The notes beneath the pieces are model-generated. The model did no database searches. It saw nothing but the letters and a program-made list of their open reading frames with translations, and was not told where the DNA came from. From an uncultured Oligoflexia bacterium (GTDB lineage: Bacteria; Bdellovibrionota; UBA1018; CAYHWW01): a stretch of 64,000 nucleotides of DNA. Numbering within the stretch: the first letter of the stretch is position 1; each line of letters starts with the position of its first letter. Positions 13,547-61,726 of this stretch are shown piece by piece. Location of the stretch: contig CAYYYP010000009.1 of NCBI GenBank assembly GCA_964475985.1, forward strand, positions 14,662 to 78,661, in the 5' to 3' direction. A program made the translations under genes and the position numbers.

Positions 13547-13588
13547 AGTAAGGTTAAAGTTAAATTGACTTAGTTTCAGTTGCCGCTC

Positions 13589-14377
13589 CTACCAACTCGC
13601 ATCGATGGCGGCAATGAAACCCGTCCCGATGGTATCTTCGGCCGCCGTGCACACCGCCGGATCAACATTAGTGCAACCGCCAAGCGCGCACACCGCGGCA
13701 ACCACTGTGCTCAAATTGGCAAGGGTTCCGGTGTCTGCCCCCAATGAATCCAAAGAATCATTGATGGTCGAAAATGCAACCTGTATGGAACAACGCTCAG
13801 CCATCGTCGCATCCGACGCGACAAGGGGCGTAGTCTGCGCGCCGGTACCGGAGTCTGCGACGCCCATGCGCGAAATCAAAGATGAGATTACGCCGAGCTG
13901 CATGAAGATCATATAAACATTTGCGTCACCCGGGCGATCCACCGCAAACAAAGAACCATTGGGCGCCGTGGTGCGCAGGATGGTGGCCGCTTCCATGAAA
14001 TTTGCATAATGCCCGTCGGACCCGTTGGAATAGAGTGAACTCACGATAATATTCCAGATATTACCCGATCCCTTAAGATTGGTGATGATCCTCGTCATAG
14101 AGAACCCGGCCTTGCATGCGTAGGCCGAGGAAAAAACCATTCTGACCTCGTTGTCCGTACGGGAGGATTGATAGAGTGGCGTTAAGGTTTCAATGGCCTT
14201 ATCGCAATTCCCGGAATTCAGATAAAGATTGGCCTCTTCAATGACGGCCTGTTTTCCATTATCCGATTGAATGTCCCGGTAGCTTCCGCAGGAATTGAAA
14301 AACAAACTGAGACCCAGCAGCCCCAAAGCCGAAACAGAAAATAACCGACAAGGTTTTTTTGGAAAATCCATTTTCAC
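13589..14377 (-). CDS. Hypothetical secreted protein or lipoprotein
   Basis: N-terminal hydrophobic segment ending ...LSLFFNSC, with no recognisable domain. Confidence 0.45.
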   Translation of the reverse strand: MKMDFPKKPCRLFSVSALGLLGLSLFFNSCGSYRDIQSDNGKQAVIEEANLYLNSGNCDKAIETLTPLYQSSRTDNEVRMVFSSAYACKAGFSMTRIITNLKGSGNIWNIIVSSLYSNGSDGHYANFMEAATILRTTAPNGSLFAVDRPGDANVYMIFMQLGVISSLISRMGVADSGTGAQTTPLVASDATMAERCSIQVAFSTINDSLDSLGADTGTLANLSTVVAAVCALGGCTNVDPAVCTAAEDTIGTGFIAAIDASW

Positions 14378-14407
14378 AAAACCACTTCCTAAAAAATTTT
14401 TAAATTA

Positions 14408-15652: not shown

Positions 15653-15669
15653 AGTTTATTCTTAAACCT

Positions 15670-16164
15670 TCATTCTTTTTTTTTGTTTAAATAAGCGACC
15701 ACTTGCCTTGGTAAATAAGGACTAACGTCCCCCCCGAAACTTAAGAGTTCTTTAATCATGGAAGAACTTAAAAAATAAAGATTTTGGCCGGTCGCCATAA
15801 AAAACGTTTCGATATTTCCACGCAGTTCCCGGTTCATGGAAGCCATCATGAACTCGTATTCAAAATCACTGGCGGCCCGCAACCCGCGCACCAGAACGCT
15901 CGCGGAGTGTTTTCGCGCGTAATCCACCACCAAACCGTCCCACTGATCAACCTTTACGTTACGGAAGGGCTTCACGACTTTAGAAATGAGATCCACCCGC
16001 TCCTGCGCCGTGAGTAAGGTGGTCTTACGGTTTTTTTTCCCTTCGTTATTCGCAACGAGGATGGTCAGTTCCAAAAAATAGGATCTTGCGCGGGTTACGA
16101 TATCCAAATGCCCGTTGGTGAACGGATCAAATGTACCGGCATAAATGGCTTTAGGTGGCTTCAC
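15670..16164 (-). CDS. coaD: Phosphopantetheine adenylyltransferase
   Basis: AIYAGTFDPFTNGHLDIV nucleotidyltransferase motif in a ~160-aa protein. It overlaps rsmD by 14 bp, matching the conserved rsmD-coaD operon. Confidence 0.93.
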   Translation of the reverse strand: MKPPKAIYAGTFDPFTNGHLDIVTRARSYFLELTILVANNEGKKNRKTTLLTAQERVDLISKVVKPFRNVKVDQWDGLVVDYARKHSASVLVRGLRAASDFEYEFMMASMNRELRGNIETFFMATGQNLYFLSSSMIKELLSFGGDVSPYLPRQVVAYLNKKKE

Positions 16165-16798
16165 CCATTCTTCTTACAAGAATCACGACTTGGCTTCCAC
16201 CGTATTTCTTCACTTCCATCAACTCTAGGTTGGCGATTTTCAATAAATCGTAAACTTCATCGTTGAGCAGCGGGATATCCGCATTCTCTTCAAAGAAAAA
16301 TAGGCCTTCGCTTTTTAAAAAGGCGTCGGGAACCTTACTCAAAATTTTAAGGATCTTTAAAAAGTAGCCTTGATCATAAGGCGGGTCAGCCCAGATCACG
16401 TCAAAGCGCTGATCTTTTAACGTCTGATCTTGAGTTAAAAAAACTAGAACATCCTCCTCCTCTAGAGTTGCGTCCCATTTCAAGCTCTGCGTAGCGGTTT
16501 TTTGTACCGTTTTTGCATTTTCCGCAAAACGCTTCATGTTTTTTTTAAGGACTCTCACCGTCTGAAAGTGATTTTCGACAAAATGCACGCTTTGGAATCC
16601 CGCACTTAAGAGCTCAAAACCCACCGCGCCAGAACCGGCGAAAAGATCAAGGGCGGACAGATTCTGCGTGTGACCAAAGTAAGAGCGAATGACGTTCATG
16701 ACGGCTTGCCGCAAACGTTGGGCAGAAGGCCTAGTTTGCGCTCCGTCCGGCGCATTGATTTTAAGACCTTTATAAATACCGGAAGTCAAAACGAGCAT
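16151..16798 (-). CDS. rsmD: 16S rRNA (guanine966-N2)-methyltransferase RsmD
   Basis: SAM-binding motif LDLFAGSGAVGFE and the catalytic ADPPY motif, positioned directly upstream of coaD. Confidence 0.85.
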   Translation of the reverse strand: MLVLTSGIYKGLKINAPDGAQTRPSAQRLRQAVMNVIRSYFGHTQNLSALDLFAGSGAVGFELLSAGFQSVHFVENHFQTVRVLKKNMKRFAENAKTVQKTATQSLKWDATLEEEDVLVFLTQDQTLKDQRFDVIWADPPYDQGYFLKILKILSKVPDAFLKSEGLFFFEENADIPLLNDEVYDLLKIANLELMEVKKYGGSQVVILVRRMGEAT

Positions 16799-16818
16799 GG
16801 TTGAACCATACCCTAAGT

Positions 16819-17370
16819 TTAAGCCGCGTCGCGACCCTTTAAAGGAATTCGGAATTCGGCGCCAGAATCTGTCGAAATCGCCAAGGTATCTTTTTCCAGG
16901 GTTAAAATTACGCGCGTTCCGTTTTGCTCAAACTCAAGGGAGATCGCAGCGCAGCCCCCCACTTTAAGGGCAAGGCCTCCGCCGCCGAAACTTTGCTCAT
17001 AACCGTGAGTGTCACCGGCAGGTGTAGTTGTTGTTTCAAAAGCCAAGGGGTCAGGATGGACAACGTGGGCATCAGTTTCTACTAAACTTTCAGTGGCAAT
17101 TTTTGTATTTTTAATGGGAATCACCTTTGCATTTGGGGAAGCGGCCCCTTCGGTTTCGTGGTCAAAAATTTCGGCATTCGTTGCCGTGTCGACTGGTTCG
17201 GAAGGATTTTGAGGCGCCAGGGCATGTGCCGAGGTGTCGGGAGTTGTCTCGGCCGTCGTCGCAGTGGCCGTTTTGCTTTCAATGCCTTCAATCTCAGCCA
17301 GGATTTTTTCAATCTCATCTGATTGGTTGGAAAAACCGGATCCGGTATTTGAATTGGCGGCGTCTGTCAT
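16819..17370 (-). CDS. Hypothetical acidic protein
   Basis: 183 aa with a Glu/Asp/Thr/Ala-rich N-terminus and a Gly-rich C-terminal beta-like segment. No recognisable family. Confidence 0.4.
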   Translation of the reverse strand: MTDAANSNTGSGFSNQSDEIEKILAEIEGIESKTATATTAETTPDTSAHALAPQNPSEPVDTATNAEIFDHETEGAASPNAKVIPIKNTKIATESLVETDAHVVHPDPLAFETTTTPAGDTHGYEQSFGGGGLALKVGGCAAISLEFEQNGTRVILTLEKDTLAISTDSGAEFRIPLKGRDAA

Positions 17371-17567
17371 AGTTTTCTCCTTCTCGGCAACGTTTTTTTA
17401 AAGTTGCTGCGCATTAAATTTATAAAATTTCAAATTTCAAGGCGCCTTACATGAAGAACTTCGGACAGATGACTTTAAATATTAAGTTTCTAAGAAATTT
17501 TTTCAAACAAAGGTAGGCGAATACTTCCGAGTTGGTTAAACCTTTTCTTTGCTGTGGTTGCCTCAAA

Positions 17568-20500
17568 ATGACGTCCAACTTTGACTCTTTCCCAAAAAAT
17601 TTGAATCAAGCCCCCCGCGAAAATGACGGTATTTTTGCGATGATGGGCCTTATCGACAAGGACGTTTTATCTAAAAGCCTGAATGTTCCTACGGGCAAAG
17701 CCTTGAATCCCAAGCCCGTACAAAAATCTAGGCCACCCGCCGCCGCACCAAAGCTTACCCTTTCTGGCGAAGAATGGATTCAGCCTAAAAATGAAGTGTC
17801 GTTCCATCCCATTCTAAAGAGTTTTGATGAGTTATTTGAGCTCTTTAGACGGGATATCTTTCAACACCGAGATCAACTGCTCCACCTGAACAGCTCGCGG
17901 CGTCAAATGATTGAGCGCAGGCTTGAGGTCATCGCCAGGCGCATCGCAAGGGCGCGCGGCGAAAAACCCATTAAGGTTCTCTCGCTTCCCGATGTCCTAA
18001 GGGACTCTTTTCACGATATGCGGGAGAAATCCCAAGCCTTAGCGGCCCTGGATGGTTTTATCGCTGAAGTTGCGCTCCATAACATTTTTCAAATTGCGTT
18101 TCTGCTCTCGGCCGATGTTGCTCGATTACGCACGTTTGAAAAAAATGATCTCACGCGTCTTAATTTTGTCTGTCATTCCTTCGTCAATCAAAAGACCATC
18201 GCCTTCAACCAAGACAAATGCTCCTGGAACTTTGTGCGGCCAAGCATTTATTCCTGGTACAGCCTCTCCCCCATCGCCCTTGAGCAGCTCAACGCTGAGA
18301 CACTGAATCGTTTGTTGCGCAAGGACAGCCCCAGCCACAAACAAAATCAATTTATAGATTTTTCTTCTCTTGCGCCAGAACAAGAGTCTTTCGCCTTTGA
18401 GCCCCTTACGCAGAACATAAGCCAGCTTTTGGACGGCTGGTTATCTTCGACTCACCATAAAGCGGCGTTTGATCATCTCGATTTTGCGACAGAACGTTCA
18501 GGCATTCGCTCTCTGCTTAATTTTTTGGAGGCAGAACTTGGTGTTTCCCTGGCGGATCGCATTCAGCGGCGGCTGTTTTTAAAACGGGCGTTTTTGCCCT
18601 GCTTGGAGTCAGGCGCCTGGGCTTTGGAACTTCTTGAAAGCATGTTCAAAGTGCTTGAGCAGCAGTGGACCAGGGAAGGCGCGCTCCAAGGAAATCTCGG
18701 AACAGTTTCCCAAAATGTCGTAGAGGCCATTGAATATTCTTTGCAAAATTCACTCTGGGGTTGTGAGGGCGAAAGCTTTGAAACCTTTCAGCTGGAGGCA
18801 AGGGTACTTATCCGCGTAGTTGAATTCCTCAGCAAATTTGAAAACCACGGAGCTGGATTATTTAGCCAGGATGGTGGAGCACAATCGCTTTATCATTACC
18901 ATGGATCAAAGGCGCGCCCCTTACGCATTCCCCATGGGATTCGGATCGCGCCTCACCTTGGCATTGAACTTCATAATTTGGTTCAAGAGCCTTTAAGTCC
19001 TTCCTTCACTAATTTGATGGAAATCGGCATGTCACACGGAAGGTCGGCTCTGAAGTTTTCAAACGATGGCGTAGGCCTTCCGAATGCAACTACGTCCCAG
19101 GGCGTGGCTTCAGCATCTCCTGCTTCGCTGGATCTCGCTTCCTCTGCCCATTGCCAACTCTCACACCAAGCGAACACGGCGGCCGTCATTCAAAACTCTG
19201 AGAACTTCGATCTTGCGATTGTTTTAGATCATATCGACCGGGTGCGCTCGACACGGTGGCTTAAAGCTTTAGGTGAACAGGCTCCGTATTGGCGTGCATT
19301 CTTGGGCAGCAGTTCTAATTTGAATTGGGGCGAGTTGCACTTAGCCCTTGCACTTTCAAAGCTTAAGGAAAATGGAACTTGTGTGTTTTTATCCCACCGC
19401 ACCCTTCCCGATGGTGGGGATGGCGATCGTTTGCGCCGATGGATTTTAAGCCAAGCCACCTTGGAAGTGCAAGTGCTTGACCTGCCTGAGGAATCCTTTG
19501 GAAGTTATCGGCACCTCTACGTGTTTAAACGTTGCTCCCAAAAGACGGAGCGCGATCACCATCGCGTGCACTTTGGATCTTGGCGTGAACCACTTTCCCT
19601 TTCATTACTGGAAGAATCTTCCAGTACGCAGTGGGAAATTTCCGAGCGCGGGTGGGATCAAGTTTTTGTAAGGGGTGCAGCTCCTCTTGTGAGGCACCTT
19701 ACCCATAAGTTTCCCAAACTTTTTCAAGTGGCGTCCGTGCAAACTTGGTCGCCCGATCAACGTGGCGAGATGCAAGCGCTGTTTGATCAGAAGGATGTCG
19801 CGGCCCTTGAGGTCAAACGACAAGGTTATCGTTTGGAGTTTCAGCCCCTGCAGGCTCACTCGCCCTCCCGCGAGCGAGTCGTCATCTTCCCGCACAATGC
19901 GAATGATTTGTCTTGGCTGTGCAGCGTTTTAAATTCTTCGCCCGTTCAATTTTGGATCAAAATGCAGTTGACCCAGGAAGGTGGGCCCTTGCGAGCCCAA
20001 GACATGCGTTCCATACCCGTAGTGGATATGGCCTCCGTTTCATCCGAAGTGGTAACGCAGTATTTGCAATGGCTTTCTGGAGAACAATCTTCATCCCGAA
20101 TGAATGAAACGGCACTTTTGGAATGGTGCCGCACGGCAAGCCAAGAAGAAAAGGCGCCCATGATGGTGGCTCTGTCGCGCAGGCGCTTTACGCAGAAACG
20201 TACGCTCAACCGCTACCTTGACCTTTTTGAAACCTTTGAAGAGGACAAGTTGGATTTTGATCCGGAACGCCTCAGCGTATTTTACCCAGAACATCTGCTT
20301 TCCCAGATTGGCGAAGTATCTCACATTCGAGTGCAATACATTCACCCCACCGCCGTGAATCCAAATTCAAATTTAGGTTCGGGATCGGTGGCCAATTGGG
20401 TTTTGCGCGAAGTGAATGTTTCCCAAGCATCTGCGGCATCTTCACCGGCATTCTCATTGATTCAGGTTCAAGTAAAACAAGGCGGTCAGATCCGTTTCTT

Positions 20501-20765
20501 AATTCCAAGGATTTTGGCCGATCTTTTCGTGTCCCAACTCAAACGTTTGCGGGACTTCACTTGGGAAGAGGCGTTACAAATTTTGCGGGTGCCCTCTGAC
20601 CTTGAGCTTTTTGAGGCTCAGACTTCAGAAATCAGAAGAGTTTGCCAACAAACCTTATTGGAAGTGAGAGCAACGGACCGGGTTATGGAGGTCCTCTCCC
20701 TTGATCTATTTGAGATCCTGCCCCAGGATCGTCAGTACCTGAGGAGTGAGCTCAATTGGGTGTAG
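17568..20765 (+). CDS. Large hypothetical protein with a degenerate gamma-class N6-adenine methyltransferase-like core and a TaqI-like C-terminal target-recognition domain
   Basis: The ORF track starts at a TTG at 17532; I took the first ATG (MTSNF...) at 17568. FDLAIVLDHI sits where FDvIvgNPPY would be, so the catalytic motif is lost. A motif V-like segment (ELHLALALSKLKENGTCVFLSH) follows, then motif VI-VIII-like DRLRRWILSQATLEVQVLDLPEESF...LYVFKRC. The C-terminus has an LSWLCSVLNSSPVQFWIK...GG...IPV pattern typical of TaqI-like TRDs. The N-terminal ~550 aa is unassigned. Confidence 0.55.
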   Translation: MTSNFDSFPKNLNQAPRENDGIFAMMGLIDKDVLSKSLNVPTGKALNPKPVQKSRPPAAAPKLTLSGEEWIQPKNEVSFHPILKSFDELFELFRRDIFQHRDQLLHLNSSRRQMIERRLEVIARRIARARGEKPIKVLSLPDVLRDSFHDMREKSQALAALDGFIAEVALHNIFQIAFLLSADVARLRTFEKNDLTRLNFVCHSFVNQKTIAFNQDKCSWNFVRPSIYSWYSLSPIALEQLNAETLNRLLRKDSPSHKQNQFIDFSSLAPEQESFAFEPLTQNISQLLDGWLSSTHHKAAFDHLDFATERSGIRSLLNFLEAELGVSLADRIQRRLFLKRAFLPCLESGAWALELLESMFKVLEQQWTREGALQGNLGTVSQNVVEAIEYSLQNSLWGCEGESFETFQLEARVLIRVVEFLSKFENHGAGLFSQDGGAQSLYHYHGSKARPLRIPHGIRIAPHLGIELHNLVQEPLSPSFTNLMEIGMSHGRSALKFSNDGVGLPNATTSQGVASASPASLDLASSAHCQLSHQANTAAVIQNSENFDLAIVLDHIDRVRSTRWLKALGEQAPYWRAFLGSSSNLNWGELHLALALSKLKENGTCVFLSHRTLPDGGDGDRLRRWILSQATLEVQVLDLPEESFGSYRHLYVFKRCSQKTERDHHRVHFGSWREPLSLSLLEESSSTQWEISERGWDQVFVRGAAPLVRHLTHKFPKLFQVASVQTWSPDQRGEMQALFDQKDVAALEVKRQGYRLEFQPLQAHSPSRERVVIFPHNANDLSWLCSVLNSSPVQFWIKMQLTQEGGPLRAQDMRSIPVVDMASVSSEVVTQYLQWLSGEQSSSRMNETALLEWCRTASQEEKAPMMVALSRRRFTQKRTLNRYLDLFETFEEDKLDFDPERLSVFYPEHLLSQIGEVSHIRVQYIHPTAVNPNSNLGSGSVANWVLREVNVSQASAASSPAFSLIQVQVKQGGQIRFLIPRILADLFVSQLKRLRDFTWEEALQILRVPSDLELFEAQTSEIRRVCQQTLLEVRATDRVMEVLSLDLFEILPQDRQYLRSELNWV

Positions 20766-21493
20766 AGCTGAGACACGTCAATGGTTGTCTTTTTTTGCGC
20801 AGGCAACTTCGCCTCCTAAAAGACCTGATGGCGGACAAGTCAGCATTTGCAAAGTCCACATTAGAGCTTCTAAACTCGCTTGATTCAAAATTGCCCAATG
20901 ACGAAAATGGAATTCCTCCCCTGGAAGTTTTTGAGTCCTATCTCATCGATGACCTGGATGCGAGTACGGTGCTTCATCACCATTCCGAGGAATTGTTAAG
21001 ACTTGAAAAAATGATTCTGGAACAAAGTTTGTCGGAAACTTCCCGTGAGCAATTCCAGAAGAATCTACGCCACCCGCTGGAACTTAAGGAACGTTCCAAA
21101 TTTTTTGGGCGTAAGGCGGCGTTTGAAATCCTAGAACGTGGAGAACTGGTGCGCCCGCGTCCCTCGGAGGAACTTACCCTTAAGCAAACTCAATGGATTC
21201 TCTATCACCGGTTTCAGTTCGTGCCTTCGTATCAGGAACAGGGTTTTCTCACGGTAAGGGATCTGGAATCGCATTTGCTCATGGAAAATCGTGGCTGCCC
21301 TCACATACGTTGGCAGAGGTCAGCTGAGTTATTGGATTTACTTTGTGATCTAGAAGCGGATTTTTTTCTAGGATTTCTAGAGGTCACGGCCCCCCGCAGC
21401 CATTTTCAAAAGAGGCCGTCGGCATTGGCCCATTGTTGCGTGTGGGAGCTTCACTCTACGGCTGGCTTATCTACTCTTTCAAGCCAGCGATAA
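20756..21493 (+). CDS. Hypothetical protein, translationally coupled to the upstream large gene
   Basis: The ORF overlaps the stop of the upstream gene by 10 bp, and its 3' end overlaps the convergent regulator gene by 43 bp. No recognisable domain. The true start may be the internal Met (MADKSAF). Confidence 0.4.
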   Translation: MGVELRHVNGCLFLRRQLRLLKDLMADKSAFAKSTLELLNSLDSKLPNDENGIPPLEVFESYLIDDLDASTVLHHHSEELLRLEKMILEQSLSETSREQFQKNLRHPLELKERSKFFGRKAAFEILERGELVRPRPSEELTLKQTQWILYHRFQFVPSYQEQGFLTVRDLESHLLMENRGCPHIRWQRSAELLDLLCDLEADFFLGFLEVTAPRSHFQKRPSALAHCCVWELHSTAGLSTLSSQR

Positions 21494-22923
21494 ACTGTAC
21501 GCAAATTGATCCCTAAAATCTGCGCAGCCTGTGCTTTGTCACCTCGACATAGGTCCAGTGTTTGGCGAATCACATGATCTTCAATCTGGCGAAGGGGTGT
21601 ACCGAAGGGAAGTACGATGTGAGCTTCGGGTTCGGCCTTCGCAGATAAAGACTGTTCAAGAATTTGTTTTGGTAGATCACGAACCGTAATCAGTCCGCCT
21701 TGGCAAAGAGCCGCTCCGCGTTCCACGACGTTGCGCAGTTCTCGCACGTTTCCCGGCCAGTCATAACTTTTGCAGAGCGTCCTAGCTTCCTTCGTCATGC
21801 TGACTTCCTGTCGAAGGTTTTCTTGTTCAGGTGTCGTGAAAAACCGGCAAAAGTAATCTAGCAAAGCTTCGATGTCGCCAGGGCGCTGGCGCAATGGATA
21901 CACATCAACGCTCACTACGCGTAATCGGTAGAGTAAATCTTCCCGGAACTTTCCCTGGTCGCAAAGAGATTCAAGCTCCTGGTTCGCCGCCGTAACCCAG
22001 CGCACATCGATTCGTCTACTCTCGTTACTGCCTAGGGGGCGCACCTCTTTTTCCTGGATGACCCTCAGTAATTTTGACTGCATGCTCAAACTCATAGACG
22101 TGATCTCATCAAGAAAAAATGTACCACCGTCGGCCAAGGTAATCTGACCGGGTTTTTCTTGGTGAGCTCCCGTAAAAGCTCCACGTTCATAACCAAAAAG
22201 TTCACTCTCTAATAAAGTTTCCGGCAACGCTGCCGCATTGAGCGCTACGAAAGGTCCATTTTTCCGGAGGCTTTTCTCATGAAGTCGCTTGGCCAGGAGT
22301 TCCTTTCCCGTGCCACTCTCCCCGGTGATGAGCACCGACGCTAAGGTCGGCGCCACTTGATCAATCAGCTGAAGAACCGCTTGGGATTTTAAATCCTTTG
22401 CGATGAACTCCGTGGGCGGCGCAGGAGTCATGGGAAGCGAGGCCGCCTTTTTGGCTTGTTTTAGGCGGTAGGCGCGCAATCTTAAAGTTTCCTGGCAGAG
22501 GAGTTCCAGTTCCTTTTTTTTAAGCGGCTTCATCAAAAAGTGGATGGCACCCTGGCGCATGAGCTCGATGGCCTGGGCGAGATCGCCATAGGCCGTCATA
22601 AAAGCCACGTGCGGGCGGGACGTTTTATCACGTTGTCCCTGACCGCTATGAATCACCAGGTTTTCTAGGCAAGCATGCTTAAAGAACAAGTCCCCATCCA
22701 TGACGGGCATTCTCAAATCGCAAAGGATCAAATCAAATTGTCCCTGATTCCTCAGGATCTGCAATCCTTCTTCGCCGTGGGCAGCGCTCGTGCAATCATG
22801 ACCCAATCGTAAAAACATCTCCTGCAAAGAAACGCGGCCTGAGACATCGTCATCAATGGTGAGGATGCGAAGTTTCCGAAGCTCCTCAGGATGCCCGGAT
22901 GGTTGACGCGTAGGGGGTTTCAT
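21451..22923 (-). CDS. Sigma-54-dependent transcriptional response regulator (NtrC family)
   Basis: Receiver domain (LTIDDD...ILCDLRMPVMDG), an AAA+ sigma-54 activator core (GESGTGKELLAKRLH, a GAFTGA-like ERGAFTGA) and a C-terminal Fis-type HTH. Confidence 0.9.
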   Translation of the reverse strand: MKPPTRQPSGHPEELRKLRILTIDDDVSGRVSLQEMFLRLGHDCTSAAHGEEGLQILRNQGQFDLILCDLRMPVMDGDLFFKHACLENLVIHSGQGQRDKTSRPHVAFMTAYGDLAQAIELMRQGAIHFLMKPLKKKELELLCQETLRLRAYRLKQAKKAASLPMTPAPPTEFIAKDLKSQAVLQLIDQVAPTLASVLITGESGTGKELLAKRLHEKSLRKNGPFVALNAAALPETLLESELFGYERGAFTGAHQEKPGQITLADGGTFFLDEITSMSLSMQSKLLRVIQEKEVRPLGSNESRRIDVRWVTAANQELESLCDQGKFREDLLYRLRVVSVDVYPLRQRPGDIEALLDYFCRFFTTPEQENLRQEVSMTKEARTLCKSYDWPGNVRELRNVVERGAALCQGGLITVRDLPKQILEQSLSAKAEPEAHIVLPFGTPLRQIEDHVIRQTLDLCRGDKAQAAQILGINLRTVYRWLERVDKPAVE

Positions 22924-24793
22924 TTGAGCGCTCTCCTAAATTCTTTGGGGCAAGGGTTTTGAAAAACTGCAATGGTAAGGAAACTTCAAAACACGCGGAA
23001 TTCTTTGCATTGACGCTCAAAGTAAGATCCCCCCCAAATTTACGGCAGAGCTCGCGGGCAACCGCTAAACCAAGGCCATGGCCCTTAGCCTTCGTCGTCA
23101 CGAAAGGCCTAAAAATTTCCGTTCGCAAATCTTGGGAAACACCTGGCCCGTTGTCCGAAACCCGCACTAAAAAATTTTGGGCTACCCGCACCGCTTCAAT
23201 GTGAATGATGCGTTGAGGCGGGGTGGAACCGCCGTGGGCTACGTTTTCGAGATGATCCAGGGTAAAGGCCTCCATGGAATTTTTTACTAAATTCAACAAT
23301 ATTTGTTGAAGTGCGCGCGCTAGATCCTGGGGCAGAAACACCTCTTCCATGGCCTGGGAAATATTGAGATCCATTTCCACGCCATGGGCCATGAGTTGAA
23401 GACTCATGAGATTTAAGCTGTGCTCAAACACTTTTTGAAACTCAACTTTCTTTTTAGCGCTCCAATCATCGCCGATGCGCTGGGTGGAATCACGCGAAAC
23501 ATTCAAGTATTCATCACAAGTGCGATTAAGACGGTCAATCTCCCCGTGAATCAACGCAAGCCTAGCTGAGTCATTTTTTGAAACTTCCAGCATTTCTAAC
23601 TGTAAACTTAATGCATTTAATGGATTCCTGATTTCATGGGCCATCTGGCTTGCCATTTTACCCATGAAGCTCAGTTTTTCCGCAACGCCTAGCCGCTCCT
23701 CTAATTCTACCCGCGGAGTCACGTCGGAAATGATCACCAGGCAATTGACCGCATTTTCTAAGTCAATAAACTGCAAATTGAAATCAAAAGATTTTCCCGC
23801 CAAACGGCCAATTCCTTTAAGTTCATGGAGCTGCAGATTTTCGCCCTTTGCCAACACCGCATTGAGATCCACGCCCAGGTTTTCCAAGAACAACCTTTTT
23901 GAATCAGAGAGCTTAGGTGCGCCTTCATTTTGAAACATGCGCCAGAACGATTTGTTCGTACGTAGAATTCCCCCGTCATGACTGAGCATCATGAGAGCTA
24001 AGTCCAGGGAATCGAGAATTTTATCGCTCAGTGACGTGAGTTTTTTTAGGTCATCTAGACGCCGATGGGAGAATTCTAGCTCAAGGGTTGAGGTGCGTAG
24101 AATTTCTTGCATACTCCTACTGCGGTGGGAAATCTCAAGTTCTTTTTCCTTCTGCAGCTCCTCGAATCTCCGGCGAAAACCGCTTCGTTTCGCCCAGGCG
24201 ACTCCCGCAAAAATGGAAAGGTAGAACGCCCACATGAGAAGTAGATTTCTACTCAATGTATTTTGTTTTACCTGCCAACCGGCCAGGGTATGTTTCTGTT
24301 CGCGTGCGAGGTTCTCTAGACTTCTTTCCATTCGCGCCTGGAGTTCCCTTAAGGACAAGTAAAACTCACCTCCCGCCGTCAAATCACCTTGCGATAAAGC
24401 CCGCTTTAAATTTTTTGCAAAACTTAAGTCTTGCTCGGCGAGCAAGTCATTTTGGTGGGAAAGCAAGTTCTTAAGGCTTCCGTAGGAGGTGTCGAGTTTC
24501 TTAATCAACGACTGGACTTCGGGCTCAATAAATTTTTTGTAGGCGCCGGGCGGTAGGTTTAAATCGAAGTCTTCCGAGCCCCATTTGGAGAATTGCACCG
24601 AGGAGTCAATCATTTTGCGGTACAGTACGAAACGGCCCACGATGTTTTCCGTCTGGGCGAGCGCTCCTTCCACTAGGTTTTGCTGCATGTTCTTGAGTTC
24701 AATCAGTTCTTGATATGCCCAATAGCTTTTACTAGCTAAAACCAACCCTGCGACCAGAAGCACTAGAGGTAAAGGATCCCGAGTTTTGCCCAT
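22886..24793 (-). CDS. Sensor histidine kinase
   Basis: N-terminal membrane anchor with coiled regions, an H-box (MAHEIRNPLNAL) and an HATPase_c domain (VSDNGPGV...GHGLGLAVAREL). It overlaps the downstream regulator gene by 38 bp. Confidence 0.88.
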   Translation of the reverse strand: MGKTRDPLPLVLLVAGLVLASKSYWAYQELIELKNMQQNLVEGALAQTENIVGRFVLYRKMIDSSVQFSKWGSEDFDLNLPPGAYKKFIEPEVQSLIKKLDTSYGSLKNLLSHQNDLLAEQDLSFAKNLKRALSQGDLTAGGEFYLSLRELQARMERSLENLAREQKHTLAGWQVKQNTLSRNLLLMWAFYLSIFAGVAWAKRSGFRRRFEELQKEKELEISHRSRSMQEILRTSTLELEFSHRRLDDLKKLTSLSDKILDSLDLALMMLSHDGGILRTNKSFWRMFQNEGAPKLSDSKRLFLENLGVDLNAVLAKGENLQLHELKGIGRLAGKSFDFNLQFIDLENAVNCLVIISDVTPRVELEERLGVAEKLSFMGKMASQMAHEIRNPLNALSLQLEMLEVSKNDSARLALIHGEIDRLNRTCDEYLNVSRDSTQRIGDDWSAKKKVEFQKVFEHSLNLMSLQLMAHGVEMDLNISQAMEEVFLPQDLARALQQILLNLVKNSMEAFTLDHLENVAHGGSTPPQRIIHIEAVRVAQNFLVRVSDNGPGVSQDLRTEIFRPFVTTKAKGHGLGLAVARELCRKFGGDLTLSVNAKNSACFEVSLPLQFFKTLAPKNLGERSNETPYASTIRAS

Positions 24794-24907
24794 TGACTCA
24801 TATTCTACATGAGGCGGAATTTAGAAAAAGGATGATGCTTTAAGTCAGACAAGACAAATTGCCAAAGTTAGGAAGTTTTTGCCTAGCTTGGAAAGGGCTC
24901 ACCGGTG

Positions 24908-25029
24908 GCCACACGACGGCCCAAAAAAACTTGCGTGAGGAAACGGGCATCCTGCCCTGCTTCACGCTTGGGATCGTCATCGTGACGCGTGAGCTTCCTC
25001 ACGCAAGTTTTTTTGGGCCGCCGTGTTTC
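24908..25029. repeat. Composite palindromic element, copy B: ~33-bp inverted arms with one mismatch around a 52-nt structured core, in opposite orientation to copy A
   Basis: Arms are cacacgacggcccaaaaaaacttgcgtgaggaa and ttcctcacgcaagtttttttgggccgccgtgt. The reverse complement of the core matches copy A (CTCACGCGTCA[G/C]GATGACG[G/-]ATCCCA[C/A]GCGTG) and then forms GGGCA-gga-TGCCC where copy A has GCGCA-cga-TGCGC. Confidence 0.8.
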
Positions 25030-25167
25030 ATACGCTGTGCATTTCTTTGGCCTGGAATTACATATCTAACAAACGAATTTAAATTGATTACTTTTCTCAG
25101 GACATACTTTGCGTACGGGCGCTGGCATTTTGGATCGAGGTCGTTGCTGCACCTATGACAAACTGAC

Positions 25168-28100
25168 CTACCGCAAACCCTGAAGGCTTTTTGTAATGCA
25201 GTTTAAACCTTCGGCCGAGGTTGGGGTTTCGATTAGTGGAGTGAGGAGATTTGTTAGTGTGGTTTGGAGTTCGGTGCCTTGGGGGCCGCGGTAGTGGGCG
25301 AAGGATCTTTCGGTGAAACCGCGGGCGGCTTGCGTTTTAGAGATGACGTGGGCGGCCGTGGTGGAGAAGGCTTGCCTGAGTTGGCTGGGAGATGGACTTA
25401 CTTCTAGATTTAGTTCGGAGTGAATGGAGTTCAAATGAGTTACGGCCTCACCTACGGAAATTTGGTTTTGGTTTAATCTTTGATAGGTACGAATAAGGCG
25501 GTCGGCGAGCATGAGGGCTTCGCGAGGGTCGAGGCTTTGGTGTCCGCCTACACTTTGGATGATGCGCCGGAGTTGGGAGTGTTCGCGGGCGATGGCTTCG
25601 TTTCTTTCGTTTAAGACACTAGATTCAAGTCCTAAGGGGTTACCTAAAAATGGGATAGTCGTGGGCTCGTGGGCTAAATTTTCAGTGATGGATTGGGACG
25701 GCTCAGTTGGGCTAGAAGCGGCAACCGGCGCCTCAGTGAGTCCAAGTGCAAGATAGTCTCGCAGCGGAGGTAAGGCGTACGTTAAAGGTGCACTATCAAC
25801 AGATTTTGTTGTATTTGTAGCTGTAGCTGTCGCAAAATTTGGGGACGCGTTTTGGATGCGCCTGCGGGCGATAAATTCTCTTGCTCTCATCGCCGCGTTC
25901 CTTGCCCTGCGCCACCATTCTTGAATATGACTTTGGGTGGTTTGGAATCCTCGTCTTAATCCTGCACCACGGGATTGCGCGACTGCCGGCACCGGCGAGC
26001 GAGGGTCGCGTCGGTTTGGGGTTGAATCATAAATCGTACGGCGAATTTCGCCAGCGGGTGACCTGCGCAGTTCGTGAGTTCTTGCGTGAAAGTCGTCAGC
26101 CCTTAATGTCCGAGCACCCGGCTCCACCCAGAATTCCGAGCGGGACTCAACTCTCACCGATGGATTTCCACCATGATAGCTTTCTAGAACCGCACTAAAA
26201 ATTTCACTGGCGCCAGAACACTGCGTGCAGACCACGGCATCCTCCGCCAGAAACCTTGCTAGCGGCGTGAACTCATTTTCAAGTTTCGTACTGGGATGCG
26301 CAGGAAATGTTTGTTCCGATCGGTAAGTATAAAGGCCTGACTCTCGAACCGTGGCTTCCAGTTCTGATCCAACCACTAAAATACTATTGCGTTCGGAGTG
26401 CGACCGCATCAAAGCATCAAGCCTATCCGCTAATACTACAAAACCCGCATCCCTAAGTCGCATAATCACCGGTCTTAGGCGTTCTATTTCATAAGTCTGC
26501 GAAAGCGGATTTGCCGCATCGGGCGTGGCGGATATTCGGTAAGCGGCATTGATATGAAAGAAGGGAACCTGCCCCCCGACCTCTCTTCGCAAACGAACAA
26601 TGTTTTCCCGCGTTGGCCCGTGCATGAGAACATCATAATCTTTACCTTGCTTAAGCCTGCGGCCTTGGAGATCGGTCACTTCAATATGGGAGAGCACGTG
26701 ATTTTCTGGCCGCGGAAGTGGTGCATCCGGGGCATGTGGCCCGCCGAGCATGGGAACTCGAGTGCGAACCTCCACCAACGCCGGATAATTTCTATTTCTT
26801 CCACGTAAAAGCCAAGCCACGGGATTCCTTGCGGGAGGTGGTGGTACGTTCACAACATGGGATTCTGAAGCATTTCTAAAATCTTCAACTTGTCCCAGGA
26901 GAAAGTGAGCGGGCATTTGTTCTCGAGGAATTCGCCCGCGGTAAGCCACATGATAATGAATGTCGTCCTTTGGGATATGGTTGGTCGCGGTGCTCCTAGC
27001 CCCCAATGGCAACGCTACCGGCTGCGGGGTAGCGGTCGCCGATGTTGGAGGAGCTTCTAAATTATTATTATTTTGGGCCGTCGGCATTAGAAACCCGCCG
27101 TGGTTAGCTCGGTCTATCCGTTCCACTAAGTTTTCGGCGGGTAAATTATTACGCCTAAGCGATCGTTCTCTTTCCAATACAGAGTCCATTCCTTCGCTCC
27201 AAAGGTGAGCCTCCAATGCTACGGCAGCTTTGTTGATGTCATTTGGCAACCACCGCAACGGTTGGGTTTGTTCATGCTGCCGCACGAAATGTCCGAGCTG
27301 AAATTCCATATCGGAATCTGCGGTAAACTGCGCATCAAGCACCCTCACCCCTTCCGCATAATTCTGAATCAAATGCGGTACGGATCTTCGAAATAAAGTC
27401 TCCCGAACGAGGTCCTGCTCCGTAAGTATCTCGCCCCGGGGCCCCCTGGCGTCTGGCTCCGTCATGAAATATGTGGAAACCGCGTCCGGGTTCATTTCTG
27501 GGGGTAAATGCGGTAAATACTGGAGCGTGCTCACGGGCACCCTTTGACCGCTCAGCAATAGAACAGGTTCATTTGTAAGCGAATCCCATTCAAAATTAAT
27601 TCTATTTAGGTCAGCGACATCCAAGATATGCACGTCTTTTCCAATCCTGCGTCCCTGCACATCAAAACCTTCCGGTAGAACTCCTCGATAATTCGGATCC
27701 GGAATATACGCGAGCGATCCATGCCCTTCCGAGATCATCGTCGCAAATGCGCCTCGAAATCGGTTCCGTAAAACATCCAACTGCCTTCGCCGCCACAGGG
27801 CTAATTCCTGAGCCGGCGGCAGCCGCAAAGCATTGGCTTTTCTTACTCTTGCATCGTGGGTAAGATGGGTGACCAGCCGATGATAATCCTGATTATAGGG
27901 TGGTTGATTTAGGAAACGTTCCGGGCTCAGCGTGACCGAATTTTTTTGAATGAAATCTGGCGTTCGAGATGGAATGCCCGGAAGGGAAAGTGGCGCCACT
28001 TGGGGCAAGTTTTCAGGTAATGGGCTCGCCGATACTCCATAGGGAGCAATGCTTCTAGTTGATAAAACGACTTCGGTTAACGGATGAGACTGGCTGATGG

Positions 28101-30429
28101 TTTCTAAAATTTGCGCTCGCGCCTGAACGTCGATGACCGTCTGTTCCCTTGGGGATAAAGGCGGAAGCATTGCTTCGTTGGACGTTACTTTTTCGCCCGT
28201 TTCGGAAACATTTTGTGCCGGGTTTCGTTGTCGCGCCTGCAACCGCAAGTAATCATGCTGAAGCCGAGTCATGGGGTCTAGTAAAAAGCTCTCCCCTCGC
28301 GACTGCACTGCCTCGTCCAGAAGTCGGTTTCGCCGCAAATGCCCGATCCGCATATTCCGAATGCGATCCGCCCCAAACAAGGTGGTGCCCCAATTGATTG
28401 CATTATAAATTTCTGACGCAGTACGGTCCGTAATTTTTGAATGATCAAATAATGTCGTGAGGCTCGGAAGCCCTGGCTGCTTCACCGTACTTAGCACCAC
28501 TTGGGCAAGGTCACCTAAGGACCCATCTTGTCCCCTTAGGCGGAGCAAAGGTTCTTCCTGCTCCCTCACAATATTCCCAACGCCAAGTGACTGAGCCACA
28601 TCTAGATCCGGCGTAATAAAGAGCGCCATCCCCGAATGGACACTGCGCACCGGCGTAGGGCCCGCCAAAAGAAGTTCAACATCGTTTGTGCGTTCCAGTA
28701 GAGACGAAGGAACCGTCATATGCGACTGCGAACCTATGTAACGATCATAAAGTACTCCGCTGGGTATACCTCGCCTTCGCACCCAGTCCCTCGTGCGGTT
28801 ATGCCAGTCCGCAGTATTATCGCCCCACCATTTACCATGGCCAGCATCCACGCCGGCCCGCACTTCGGGGATGGTGTGGTAGAAATCAGTTAAGGTGTCG
28901 AGCGCATAGGTATAATTTAATGAACTTGGGGTTTCTGTTCTTAAAATTTCCACAAGCTCGTCGCGAATATTTCTATCGTAGTGGACCAAACGGCGAAAGG
29001 CCGGAAAGAAATTTAAAAACTTTCGGTTTCTTACATCTTCGAGAATAAACGCCCTAGTCTCCGGCGTGTAGGCCGAGGCAGGGATTGCGCGATTAAGGGA
29101 AGAAATCAATCGGTCGTAGGGAAACTGATTCCTAAGATATGGAGCATTATAAATATTAATTATTGCAGCCTGGACCTCCGGTCTCGAATAACCCACATCA
29201 ACCATGTCTGGCAGGCGCGCTACGGCGTGCATAATCAACGCTACGTTAAGGTGAGTCCCATCGCCGCCACTGTTCCTCGAGATATTTCGCGCAAAGTGCC
29301 CCAAAACATACGCCGAAAGCTCAGGCGAAAAAGTTTCTTTAGAACCCTGGTATCTATCAGCCGTTAGTTTTAAAATTTTCGCCACCAAGTTATAGCGACC
29401 TTGAGCTTCAAGTTCCGGTAAAATATATCGGGCTAACGCGGCCTCGGGCGGCCGTAACTTAGTACGTTTATTGTTCAGTTCTGCGGTGAGAATATCCACA
29501 AATGCATCAGGGTCCCTCCGCAATTCTGCTAAGTAAAAATCTCGAATCCGCGGGCTCGCATACATGAGGTGCGGAAAAAGATGGAAGATATCTTTTGGTT
29601 GTGAAAGAAGCGCACTTTCAATTTCTGGATGGAGCTGGCGAGTATTTCCTAATTTCTGAATAAGCTGCCGCATATCATCCCCGTAAAAGTACCCCCTAGC
29701 GTGCCGCCGCAAAAAAGCCTCGCGCACCCAACGGACTCCATTCACGTGCTCAAGCAAAGAAGATTCAAACACTAGCGCGTCAAGATCTGCAGATTCCATG
29801 ACCAGACTTCCAGAGTCCGTACTCCAAGGGTGCGCCGCAAGTAAGGGCCCCCATTGCTCCAAGTCAGCCCGTGGAGTGTGGTAGTACACCGCCAGCCCTT
29901 TGATAAACGTATCCTCCGCAACGAATCGCTCCCCCTCGGGAACTTCGTAGAGTCTCGCTAAAATAAGGGATTTAAACCGTTGATTACCGTTCGCAATATG
30001 AAAGAGTCGCGCCCATACGTCCATGCTCGAATAATTCGTACGACGTAAAAAGCTCAATAAAATTTTAATCCCATCAAGCCCCGACCATGAGTATCCCGTC
30101 GCATGCAAAATCCGATACGCCTTTTCACCACGGAGCGCCTCCGCTTCAGCCCCACTTTGAAGGCCTCGGGCAAGCCGCACAAGTTCATCCAACGCCACTT
30201 GCCGATCACCGGCATTTTGGTTGAAAATCGCCTTAATTAAAAATACAAATCCGTCGGCCTGCGCCGACTGGAAGTCAAACGTATCCACGATGGCCCCTAC
30301 CCGTTCCCGAATCAAATGCGGTGGTGAACCAAAAACCAAATGCGGAGAAAATCCCTCCGCCGCCAACACTGCGACGAGGGTAAAACACCACAACCTAAAT
30401 TTTGACCAGGTTTTTGGGACGGACGTCAT
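25168..30429 (-). CDS. Giant hypothetical secreted protein (1753 aa) with no recognisable domain
   Basis: Uninterrupted 5.26-kb ORF starting ATGACGTCC with an N-terminal signal-like segment (FRLWCFTLVAVLAAEG). Arg-rich, with composition similar to the 1616-aa protein. It is followed by palindromic element B. Confidence 0.7.
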   Translation of the reverse strand: MTSVPKTWSKFRLWCFTLVAVLAAEGFSPHLVFGSPPHLIRERVGAIVDTFDFQSAQADGFVFLIKAIFNQNAGDRQVALDELVRLARGLQSGAEAEALRGEKAYRILHATGYSWSGLDGIKILLSFLRRTNYSSMDVWARLFHIANGNQRFKSLILARLYEVPEGERFVAEDTFIKGLAVYYHTPRADLEQWGPLLAAHPWSTDSGSLVMESADLDALVFESSLLEHVNGVRWVREAFLRRHARGYFYGDDMRQLIQKLGNTRQLHPEIESALLSQPKDIFHLFPHLMYASPRIRDFYLAELRRDPDAFVDILTAELNNKRTKLRPPEAALARYILPELEAQGRYNLVAKILKLTADRYQGSKETFSPELSAYVLGHFARNISRNSGGDGTHLNVALIMHAVARLPDMVDVGYSRPEVQAAIINIYNAPYLRNQFPYDRLISSLNRAIPASAYTPETRAFILEDVRNRKFLNFFPAFRRLVHYDRNIRDELVEILRTETPSSLNYTYALDTLTDFYHTIPEVRAGVDAGHGKWWGDNTADWHNRTRDWVRRRGIPSGVLYDRYIGSQSHMTVPSSLLERTNDVELLLAGPTPVRSVHSGMALFITPDLDVAQSLGVGNIVREQEEPLLRLRGQDGSLGDLAQVVLSTVKQPGLPSLTTLFDHSKITDRTASEIYNAINWGTTLFGADRIRNMRIGHLRRNRLLDEAVQSRGESFLLDPMTRLQHDYLRLQARQRNPAQNVSETGEKVTSNEAMLPPLSPREQTVIDVQARAQILETISQSHPLTEVVLSTRSIAPYGVSASPLPENLPQVAPLSLPGIPSRTPDFIQKNSVTLSPERFLNQPPYNQDYHRLVTHLTHDARVRKANALRLPPAQELALWRRRQLDVLRNRFRGAFATMISEGHGSLAYIPDPNYRGVLPEGFDVQGRRIGKDVHILDVADLNRINFEWDSLTNEPVLLLSGQRVPVSTLQYLPHLPPEMNPDAVSTYFMTEPDARGPRGEILTEQDLVRETLFRRSVPHLIQNYAEGVRVLDAQFTADSDMEFQLGHFVRQHEQTQPLRWLPNDINKAAVALEAHLWSEGMDSVLERERSLRRNNLPAENLVERIDRANHGGFLMPTAQNNNNLEAPPTSATATPQPVALPLGARSTATNHIPKDDIHYHVAYRGRIPREQMPAHFLLGQVEDFRNASESHVVNVPPPPARNPVAWLLRGRNRNYPALVEVRTRVPMLGGPHAPDAPLPRPENHVLSHIEVTDLQGRRLKQGKDYDVLMHGPTRENIVRLRREVGGQVPFFHINAAYRISATPDAANPLSQTYEIERLRPVIMRLRDAGFVVLADRLDALMRSHSERNSILVVGSELEATVRESGLYTYRSEQTFPAHPSTKLENEFTPLARFLAEDAVVCTQCSGASEIFSAVLESYHGGNPSVRVESRSEFWVEPGARTLRADDFHARTHELRRSPAGEIRRTIYDSTPNRRDPRSPVPAVAQSRGAGLRRGFQTTQSHIQEWWRRARNAAMRAREFIARRRIQNASPNFATATATNTTKSVDSAPLTYALPPLRDYLALGLTEAPVAASSPTEPSQSITENLAHEPTTIPFLGNPLGLESSVLNERNEAIAREHSQLRRIIQSVGGHQSLDPREALMLADRLIRTYQRLNQNQISVGEAVTHLNSIHSELNLEVSPSPSQLRQAFSTTAAHVISKTQAARGFTERSFAHYRGPQGTELQTTLTNLLTPLIETPTSAEGLNCITKSLQGLR

Positions 30430-61708: not shown

Positions 61709-61726
61709 ATTTATTTGTCTCACTTT

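What the first reader, a model, noticed from the sequence alone, without database searches (positions are those of the whole stretch)
24908..25029. Copy B of the palindromic element, with compensatory base changes relative to copy A
The reverse complement of copy B's core matches copy A over ~32 nt with 2 substitutions and 1 indel. The adjacent mini-hairpin is GGGCA-gga-TGCCC where copy A has GCGCA-cga-TGCGC, so the second and second-to-last stem positions have swapped C-G for G-C. The long outer arms differ in sequence but stay fully paired, which points to selection on secondary structure rather than sequence. Copy B lies between the stop of the 1753-aa gene and the start of the sensor kinase/sigma-54 regulator operon, in the opposite orientation to copy A.
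Basis: seen in the sequence. Interest (0 to 1): 0.65.

Follow-up and report, generated by a model that had tools for sequence, protein, structure and literature searches.

The report
Hairpin repeat with conserved three-way cap
Copy B belongs to a previously undescribed family of about 150-base intergenic hairpin elements in an uncultured predatory-bacterium lineage (Bdellovibrionota); its long stem keeps perfect pairing while its sequence changes almost completely, a small cap stays constant, and one copy differs sharply between two nearly identical strains.

Summary
Copy B spans window 24895-25048 (core on the minus strand) and copy A spans 10777-10926 (plus strand). Both fold into a 34-bp stem capped by a three-way junction. 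The junction carries P2, which closes a 19-20 nt near-invariant loop, and P3, a 5-bp mini-hairpin.

A metagenome scan found two more copies in tandem on contig L024. These add compensatory changes in P2 and have entirely different, perfectly paired 39-41 bp stems.

Across the four copies the cap is 70-83% identical and the stem 33-56% identical. Each pair of copies shows 16-27 double compensatory changes and no broken pair.

A 98.4%-identical strain (L013) carries an arm that is about 42% different at the same locus. The boundary is sharp.

The element matches no Rfam family, no attC core sites, and no phage or plasmid sequence. No transposase lies in the window, and no convincing target duplication was found.

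My best reading (about 0.4) is a non-autonomous, structure-recognised mobile or recombining DNA hairpin, working like a REPIN or attC site, that also acts locally as a two-way transcription stop. A purely RNA-level role is the main rival. I call it a new variant of a known kind, but it rests on only four and a half copies.

The parts
24895..25048 (-). Copy B, whole element (left tail, P1 stem, three-way cap, right tail)
   Evidence: Exact segment mapping. The right boundary at 24895/24894 is defined by where strain L013 becomes identical to the window.
25027..25048 (-). B left tail. It contains GAAATGCACA, shared with copy A (GGAATGCACA).
   Evidence: Alignments. It pairs imperfectly with the right tail in the folds.
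24993..25026 (-). B P1 5' arm (34 nt): GC clamp, A7 tract, then GC-rich inner stem
   Evidence: 32 Watson-Crick plus 2 G-T pairs with the 3' arm.
24962..24992 (-). B P2 stem (TCACGC/GCGTGA) closing the conserved 19-nt loop GTCACGATGACGATCCCAA. The loop contains the CGTCA-cga-TGACG mini-palindrome.
   Evidence: The loop is near-invariant in all four copies.
24945..24957 (-). B P3 mini-hairpin GGGCA-gga-TGCCC
   Evidence: One covarying pair relative to copy A.
24911..24944 (-). B P1 3' arm (34 nt): inner stem, T7 tract, then GC clamp
   Evidence: This arm is hypervariable relative to strain L013.
24895..24910 (-). B right tail GGCCACCGGTGAGCCC, with the semi-conserved motif C-N-GGTGA
   Evidence: Alignment. 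The motif is CAGGTGA in A, CCGGTGG in c2, CCGATTA in c1 and CTGGTAA in L013.
10777..10926 (+). Copy A, whole element. P1 arms are 10795-10828 and 10877-10910, P2 with its loop is 10830-10859, and P3 is 10864-10876.
   Evidence: 34/34 Watson-Crick pairs in P1.

Best explanation
Copy B is one member of a new family of non-autonomous palindromic DNA elements of about 150 nt, in an uncultured Bdellovibrionota lineage.

When one strand is exposed, it folds into a long, perfectly paired stem (P1, 34-41 bp). The stem is capped by a conserved three-way junction made of P2 with an invariant 19-20 nt loop and the P3 mini-hairpin.

I propose that a trans-acting enzyme encoded elsewhere recognises the fold and the cap rather than the stem sequence. 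A hairpin-binding transposase or recombinase is the likely kind, in the manner of RAYT with REPINs or IntI with attC. Under that model copies can be moved, replaced or recombined, and the stem is free to change provided it stays paired. Hairpin-templated correction of one arm against the other would keep it perfect.

Where a copy sits between co-directional genes, its GC-rich inner stem flanked by A and T tracts probably also works as a two-way transcription stop or insulator.

What is shown: the architecture, the covariation, the cap conservation, the multi-copy and two-orientation distribution, and the sharp strain-level replacement. What is inferred: mobility, the existence of a partner enzyme, the single-stranded DNA form, and terminator activity.
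For: (1) Four full copies in two independent assemblies share the architecture, and they occur in both orientations relative to the flanking genes.

(2) The cap is 70-83% identical and the arms 33-56% identical. There are 16-27 double compensatory changes per pair of copies and none broken. P2 and P3 covary.

(3) Over 5.6 kb, strain L013 differs from the window by 1.6%. In the 48 nt of arm plus tail it differs at 20 positions plus a 2-nt indel (P about 1e-23). It then becomes identical at a sharp boundary, with the next roughly 450 nt showing no mismatch. Homologous recombination with a diverged donor would not leave that pattern.

(4) L013's arm is a mosaic. Its inner 9 nt equal B, and its outer part and tail resemble A (ACGTCTCNGGTRA). 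Likewise c1 and c2 share their inner 13 nt and then diverge completely.

(5) The L013 contig ends exactly at the arm/cap junction. A k-mer assembler would break there if the arms of that strain were also a perfect inverted repeat (inference).

(6) The element is absent downstream of PhoH2 in relatives with 76-86% identical PhoH2 (loci L014-L017 and L071-L076). In these relatives the gene content downstream of PhoH2 also differs from the window, so no true orthologous empty site was examined. A and B lie at the two ends of a conserved syntenic block, each next to orphan genes.

(7) Four of five arms carry a T4-T7 tract 13-17 nt from the junction, mirrored by an A tract, as in the plain two-way terminators of this genome at 36513-36547.

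(8) No Rfam family matches.
Against: No transposase, integrase or reverse transcriptase lies in the 64 kb window.

No convincing target-site duplication was found. The flanking 5-6 nt repeats are at chance level.

The terminal repeats are not conserved between copies, unlike classical MITEs.

Only two copies are known per genome fragment, so the copy number is unknown.

All non-Watson-Crick pairs (3-4 G-T) fall on the same 'forward' strand. That pattern fits an RNA as well as it fits single-stranded DNA.

Copy c1 lacks a T tract.

The L013 element is known only from one arm, so its pairing is inferred rather than seen.
Confidence: 0.4

Rival explanations
1. It is a cis-acting structured RNA, transcribed as part of the neighbouring mRNAs. 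The long hairpin with internal A and U tracts terminates or insulates transcription in both directions and protects mRNA ends, or serves as an RNase III site. The conserved cap binds a protein. On this reading the copies are old paralogues kept by the host.
For: Both window copies and both L024 copies lie between co-directional genes, 66-120 nt after a stop codon and 80-100 nt before the next start. Four of five arms have a GC-rich inner stem followed by a T tract, and terminator-like sites are called on both strands of A and on one strand of B. Covariation with a conserved loop is the usual signature of a functional RNA. The G-T pairs are all on one strand.
Against: Relative to the flanking genes, the forward strand is sense in B and c1 but antisense in A and c2, so co-transcription would give two different RNAs. 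A 34-41 bp stem plus a 50-nt cap is far more than termination needs, since this genome's ordinary terminators have 15-17 nt arms. Copy c1 has no T tract. Ordinary RNA evolution does not explain a 42% arm difference with a sharp boundary between strains that are 98.4% identical.
Confidence: 0.28
2. It is an independent small-RNA gene family. Each copy would have its own promoter, produce a hairpin RNA from the forward strand, and end in the U tract of the 3' arm. The variable duplex could be processed into short RNAs with copy-specific sequence.
For: Orientation is free relative to neighbouring genes. All 3-4 wobble pairs are G-U on the forward strand and would be A-C mismatches on the other. 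The forward strand folds 2-5 kcal/mol better in A and B under DNA parameters, although under RNA parameters the difference is at most 2.3 kcal/mol and c1 folds better in reverse. The A and B left tails share AAGRAATGCACA just upstream of the stem.
Against: No shared promoter-like motif was found upstream of all four copies, and the c1 and c2 left flanks are unrelated. The variable arm segments match nothing beyond chance in the window, the fetched loci or the viral contigs, so no target is evident. With 3-4 events the wobble bias has p of about 0.06-0.13.
Confidence: 0.12
3. Only the cap, roughly 50-80 nt, is the mobile unit. It inserts into the loops of pre-existing two-way terminator hairpins, so the variable arms are host terminators rather than part of the element.
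For: The arms look like this genome's A-tract/GC-stem/T-tract terminators with the loop replaced by the cap. The arms differ at every locus while the cap is constant.
Against: The arms extend 12-19 perfectly paired bp beyond the A and T tracts, which ordinary terminators do not. The arm differs between two strains at the same locus, while the inner 9 nt and the outer flank stay the same. Arm and tail motifs are shared between unlinked copies: ACGGC, the T tract, and CTC-CNGGTGA.
Confidence: 0.1
4. It is an inert palindrome or an assembly artefact, with no function and no mobility.
For: All the data come from metagenome assemblies, and palindromes are difficult for assemblers. L013 breaks at the arm.
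Against: The same architecture, with a conserved cap, appears in three independent data sets: an NCBI MAG, a JGI contig and a Logan contig. Cap conservation at 70-83% against arms at 33-56%, with zero broken pairs, is not what decay produces.
Confidence: 0.05

Closest known systems
REPINs (REP doublets forming hairpins) mobilised by RAYT transposases
   Same: Both are non-coding intergenic elements of about 100-150 nt that fold into one long hairpin. Both have more conserved ends, a middle where compensatory changes on both sides are common (PMC3116915, read), an asymmetric tail, occurrence as singlets or inverted clusters, and no transposase of their own.
   Different: In REPINs the two REP arms, including an invariant 16-mer, are the conserved part and the central spacer is the variable part. 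Here the apex (three-way cap) is the most conserved part and most of the stem is hypervariable. No REP-like repeated 16-mer exists here, no RAYT is seen in the window, and the copy number is unknown.
Integron attC recombination sites
   Same: Both are palindromic sites whose sequence varies from copy to copy while the folded single-strand structure is kept. attC is recognised by structure, its terminal structure can be branched in large sites, and extrahelical bases set strand choice (PMC2727003, read). Copies c1 and c2 have 1-2 bulged C's in one arm. The copies here sit next to variable or orphan genes.
   Different: No R''/R' core sites (RYYYAAC / GTTRRRY) occur within 20 nt of any copy. In attC the apex is the variable part, whereas here it is the conserved part. 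A and B have no extrahelical bases. There is no integrase and no co-oriented cassette array; the window copies are 14 kb apart and inverted.
Bacterial MITEs (for example Correia and ERIC elements)
   Same: Both are short, non-autonomous, multi-copy intergenic palindromic elements that can carry terminator or promoter activity.
   Different: MITE terminal inverted repeats are conserved among copies and flanked by target duplications. Here the repeats differ between copies and no significant duplication is seen.
Bidirectional intrinsic terminators
   Same: Both have an A tract, a GC-rich stem, a loop, the stem again and a T tract, lie between genes, and are symmetric on both strands.
   Different: The loop here is a conserved, structured 48-53 nt module. 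Pairing continues 12-19 bp beyond the A and T tracts. One copy (c1) has no T tract.

Membership tests
REP / REPIN | The arms are copies of a conserved REP sequence (an invariant roughly 16-mer, with a GTAG-type head) shared by all family members | tested here: not met
   Arms are 33-56% identical between copies and share no long word.
REP / REPIN | Two inverted units form one long hairpin, with compensatory changes in the less conserved part | tested here: met
   P1 has 34-41 bp, 16-27 double compensatory changes per pair of copies, and none broken.
REP / REPIN | A RAYT (Y1 HUH transposase) gene in the same genome, flanked by the repeats, and tens to hundreds of copies | not testable with these tools
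   Only 64 kb of the genome is available. No Y1 transposase is among the window ORFs. The rest of the 84-kb contig and the genome could not be fetched.
Integron attC | Conserved core sites R'' (RYYYAAC) and R' (GTTRRRY) at the foot of the hairpin | tested here: not met
   Neither motif occurs within any element plus 20 nt of flank.
Integron attC | Extrahelical bases and an unpaired central spacer in the stem | tested here: inconclusive
   A and B have uninterrupted stems. Copies c1 and c2 have a 2-nt and a 1-nt C bulge in the 3' arm.
Integron attC | Arrays of co-oriented cassettes next to an intI integrase gene | tested here: not met
   No integrase is in the window. A and B are 14 kb apart in opposite orientation, around conserved housekeeping genes.
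MITE | Terminal inverted repeats conserved among copies, plus a target-site duplication | tested here: not met
   The repeats differ between copies. Flanking direct repeats are 5-6 nt words of different sequence, about the number expected by chance.
Intrinsic terminator | A GC-rich stem of about 5-14 bp, a small loop (3-8 nt), and a U tract immediately after the stem | tested here: inconclusive
   A T4-T7 tract follows the 13-17 bp inner stem in 4 of 5 arms, but the 'loop' is a 48-53 nt structured cap and c1 lacks the tract. The scan flags local sub-hairpins only.
Any Rfam RNA family (including self-cleaving ribozymes, riboswitches and retron msr/msd) | A score at or above the family's gathering threshold | tested here: not met
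   There were zero hits at gathering thresholds in the window. In E-value mode only generic plant miRNA-precursor models scored, far below threshold and different for each copy.

The most novel reading that the evidence does not exclude
The family is a structure-specific recombination or transposition site whose stem is rewritten each time a copy is made or repaired, with one arm templated on the other. This would be a hairpin element with built-in stem diversification that marks, and helps exchange, strain-specific genes such as the giant orphan proteins. In effect it would be an attC-like system outside integrons, with the conserved and variable parts inverted.
Probability: 0.12. Interest if true: 0.85.

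Novelty: new variant of a known kind. Interest (0 to 1): 0.55.

Why it matters
If the reading is right, this family shows a third layout for bacterial hairpin elements: a conserved apex, a free-running stem and semi-conserved feet. REPINs have conserved arms, and attC sites have conserved feet with a variable apex.

The sharp replacement of a stem between strains that are 98.4% identical suggests active turnover at species level in a barely sampled predatory lineage. The copies sit beside orphan giant genes and at synteny breaks, so they may help explain how such genes move.

In practice, these palindromes break short-read assemblies of these genomes, as contig L013 shows. The cap gives a compact, searchable signature for a census.

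Tried and rejected
Pattern scans. The left-block pattern CACGCGTCANGATGACG gave only chance hits in viral contigs. With N0-1 and ATCC added it gave only chance hits in 185,579 representative genomes, so the source genome is not among them. A 22-base version found nothing in JGI metagenomes. The two-loop pattern found 53 loci, of which only L024 is a true member. A generalised core pattern found nothing in viral contigs.

Spacer or guide idea. The variable arms match nothing beyond chance in the window or the fetched loci. 19-20-mers from the c1 and c2 arms are absent from viral contigs.

Sequence similarity. BLAST of the element against phages and plasmids gave no match.

Ribozymes and riboswitches. 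There are no Rfam hits, and the junction strands (0-4 nt) are too short for a hammerhead core; that second point is my own reading of the sequence.

Sigma-54 or sigma-70 promoter in the cap. I found no match by inspection, and the promoter scans show nothing shared between copies.

DGR-type mutagenesis. The B versus L013 differences include all substitution types, not only changes at A.

attC core sites and target duplications were both negative.

Orthologous loci in relatives. The PhoH2 neighbourhoods L014-L017 and L071-L076 contain no copy.

The other flank in the L013 strain. A search with the C-terminal 600 aa of the 1753-aa protein returned nothing, not even the protein itself, although it is in the collection. 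That null therefore says nothing about whether the gene is present in the other strain.

Reaching beyond the window. Exact look-ups of SecA and the 564-aa ABC protein failed, because the gene index lacks this NCBI record.

Literature. Full-text searches for the core strings found no paper, and a keyword search on Bdellovibrio with palindromic, intergenic and repeat listed 13 papers whose titles and abstracts did not describe such an element; none was read in full.

Structure-pair tool. I did not run a formal count of structure pairs or covariance-model analysis. MAFFT misaligned copy A by one column, so I counted pairs in my own script instead.

Full report
**What is there.** Window 24911-25026 is a 32-nt inverted repeat, 31/32 complementary, around a 52-nt core. 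Window 10795-10910 is a 34/34 inverted repeat around a 48-nt core. These are by far the two longest local hairpins in the 64 kb. Either strand folds far better than shuffled sequence, as RNA or as DNA: z-scores run from -8.7 to -14.9, and 0 of 200 shuffles fold as well.

Read on the minus strand, B's core aligns with A's plus-strand core with 2 substitutions and 1 indel over about 32 nt. The adjacent mini-hairpin differs by one swapped pair, GGGCA/TGCCC against GCGCA/TGCGC. The 17-nt core pattern occurs twice in the window against 0.12 expected.

**Anatomy.** I call the strand that reads P2 then P3 the forward strand; it is minus for B and plus for A. On that strand each element has these parts in order.

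- A left tail, which carries AAGRAATGCACA in A and B.
- The P1 5' arm.
- P2, a 5-8 bp stem closing the loop GTCA-S-GA-W-GACG(G)ATYCCAM.
- A junction of 0-4 nt.
- P3, which reads GSGCA-NGA-TGCSC.
- The dinucleotide GT.
- The P1 3' arm.
- A right tail with the motif C-N-GGTGA.

B spans 24895-25048 and A spans 10777-10926. In A, B and the partial copy L013 the arms share a pattern more than a sequence. A 13-15 bp GC-rich inner stem is followed by an A tract in the 5' arm and a T tract in the 3' arm, and then by a GC clamp.

**Context.** The window is ordinary chromosome. It carries SecA, MetRS, EF-G, PhoH2, a kinase with a sigma-54 activator, and chemotaxis genes, and it has no transposase, integrase or reverse transcriptase. 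PhoH2 homologues place it in Bdellovibrionota/Oligoflexia, with the best hit at 86% identity. The source is an NCBI record with an 84,179-bp contig.

Both copies lie between co-directional minus-strand genes. A sits 66 nt after the PhoH2 stop and about 80 nt before the likely ATG (10695) of an orphan 434-aa gene. B sits 120 nt after the stop of an orphan 1753-aa gene and 100 nt before the kinase ATG.

The forward strand is antisense to the neighbouring genes in A and sense in B.

**More copies.** The left-block pattern gave only chance matches in viral contigs and in 185,579 representative genomes, and nothing in JGI metagenomes. A pattern built on the two mini-hairpin loops retrieved 53 metagenome loci. 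One of them, L024 (Ga0207094_1409, 1768 bp, 47% GC), is a true member and carries two copies. Copy c2 is at 1374-1537 on the plus strand and c1 is at 1106-1268 on the minus strand. They are inverted relative to each other, with about 105 nt between the mapped elements (about 136 nt between the stems). They lie between the stop of an unidentified gene and the start of a PilB/GspE-type ATPase gene.

Their stems are 39 and 41 bp, all Watson-Crick, with a 2-nt and a 1-nt C bulge in the 3' arm. An nhmmer search at maximum sensitivity found no other copy in the window or in any fetched locus.

**Covariation.** P2 is CACGC/GCGTG in A and B, TTCATCGC/GCGATGAA in c1, and TTGTTTGC/GCGAACAA in c2. That gives double changes at two to three pairs and one C-G to T-G change.

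In P1, aligned outward from the junction, each pair of copies differs at 18-27 of 34-39 positions. Of these, 16-27 are changed on both sides with pairing kept, 0-2 are single G-T changes, and none is broken. Sliding the partner strand by 1-3 nt gives 25-53% pairing against 100% in register. The cap is 70-83% identical between copies and the arms 33-56%.

All 3-4 non-Watson-Crick pairs are G-T on the forward strand. This is a weak hint (p about 0.06-0.13) that the forward strand is the folded one. With DNA parameters it folds 2-5 kcal/mol better in A and B. With RNA parameters the difference is at most 2.3 kcal/mol, and c1 folds better in reverse. These data cannot separate RNA from single-stranded DNA.

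**Strain comparison.** The kinase has one close homologue in 5.8 billion proteins, at 99% identity, on Logan contig L013 from SRR14932552. Over 5.6 kb L013 differs from the window at 1.6% of positions. Its first 50 nt, which correspond to B's 3' arm and tail, differ at 20 of 48 aligned positions plus a 2-nt indel (P about 1e-23). From window 24894 downward the next roughly 450 nt are identical.

The inner 9 nt of the arm (TTCCTCACG) equal B. The outer part and tail resemble A (ACGTCTCNGGTRA). Copies c1 and c2 show the same pattern: their inner 13 nt (GTACCCGCCAGAT) are shared and the rest is unrelated.

L013 starts exactly at the arm/cap junction. That is where a k-mer assembler breaks if the arms are a perfect inverted repeat, so that strain probably also has paired arms; this is an inference.

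The sharp boundary argues for replacement or rewriting of the element itself, not for import by homologous recombination from a diverged donor.

**Synteny.** Relatives with 76-86% identical PhoH2 keep the gene block from the sigma-54 regulator to PhoH2, but have different genes after PhoH2 and no element there. In L073 the kinase and MetRS are separated by three unrelated genes, where the window has the 1753-aa orphan. A and B therefore sit at the two ends of the conserved block. In both cases the orphan genes are on the element's 5' side.

The 1753-aa and 1616-aa orphans are distant paralogues, 29% identical over 258 aa with E = 2e-16. With two copies this association is suggestive only. In L024 the neighbours are not giant genes.

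**Comparison with known systems.** No Rfam family matches. REPINs share the long hairpin, the compensatory changes and the lack of a transposase, but their arms are the conserved part (PMC3116915). attC sites share the logic of variable sequence with kept fold, extrahelical bases and sometimes branched apices (PMC2727003). However, their conserved core sites are absent here, their apex is the variable part, and no integrase or cassette array is present. MITE criteria, namely conserved terminal repeats and a target duplication, are not met. The arms resemble this genome's two-way terminators (36513-36547), but they are twice as long, they enclose a conserved 50-nt cap, and c1 lacks the T tract.

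**Verdict.** The element is real and structured, it belongs to a small family not found in the public libraries searched, and its stem turns over quickly. I favour (about 0.4) a non-autonomous hairpin element recognised by fold and cap that also acts locally as a two-way transcription stop. RNA-only readings together get about 0.4. The cap-insertion and artefact readings get the rest.

The main limits are the small number of copies (four and a half), the lack of the rest of the genome, and the lack of any expression data.

Noticed in passing
window 25168-30429 (-) and 4531-9381 (-): The two giant ORFs (1753 and 1616 aa) have no Pfam domain. They are distant paralogues, 29% identical over 258 aa with E = 2e-16. 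Each lies within 1.5 kb of one copy of the element, on the element's 5' side. The 90%-identity cluster of the 1753-aa protein has a single member.
   Followed up: partly
window 24390-24446 (inside the histidine kinase gene): This is a second cluster of differences between the window and strain L013: 13 mismatches in 57 nt against a 1.6% background. It overlaps a 17-nt palindrome, CTTGCTCGGCGAGCAAG, and at least one pair changed on both sides (T-A to C-G). It may be a short recombination tract or another structure-constrained site.
   Followed up: no
window 10992-24793 compared with L016 and L073: The block from the kinase and sigma-54 regulator to PhoH2 is syntenic in relatives, and in L073 part of it is inverted. 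Gene content just outside both ends is different in every relative examined. Elements A and B sit exactly at these two ends.
   Followed up: partly
L024 1076-1104 (-): A strong sigma-70-like site (TTGACA, 17 nt, CAAAAT; 10 of 12) lies immediately after copy c1 and points into the PilB/GspE gene. A small GC hairpin (GAGGCCC-TTCG-GGGCCT) sits between c1 and c2.
   Followed up: no
L072 9151-9223: This is a different palindromic element in a relative (NCBI GCA_964360145.1). It has 20-nt perfect arms, AAGGCAACGAATGTTGCCTT, each itself a palindrome, around a 33-nt centre. It is unrelated in sequence to the family studied here.
   Followed up: no
window 36513-36547 and 61724-61772: These are ordinary two-way terminator-like hairpins between convergent genes: AAAAAGCACCCCGCA / TGCGGGGTGCTTTTT with a 5-nt loop, and a 17-nt AT-rich pair. 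They show what plain terminators look like in this genome.
   Followed up: no
window 9499-10803 (-) and 10829-11206 (-): The mechanical ORF list places the TTG start of the 434-aa ORF inside element A, and lists a 125-aa ORF across the element. The likely true start is the ATG at 10695, giving MLFGFKNLFRNILCLALVASILL, which looks like a signal peptide. The 125-aa ORF is probably spurious.
   Followed up: partly
L013 position 1 and L077 position 1: Short-read (Logan) contigs of the sister strain end at the arm/cap junction of the element, which indicates that these palindromes fragment assemblies of this lineage. L077, from SRR14932553, starts inside the kinase gene and does not reach the element.
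   Followed up: partly
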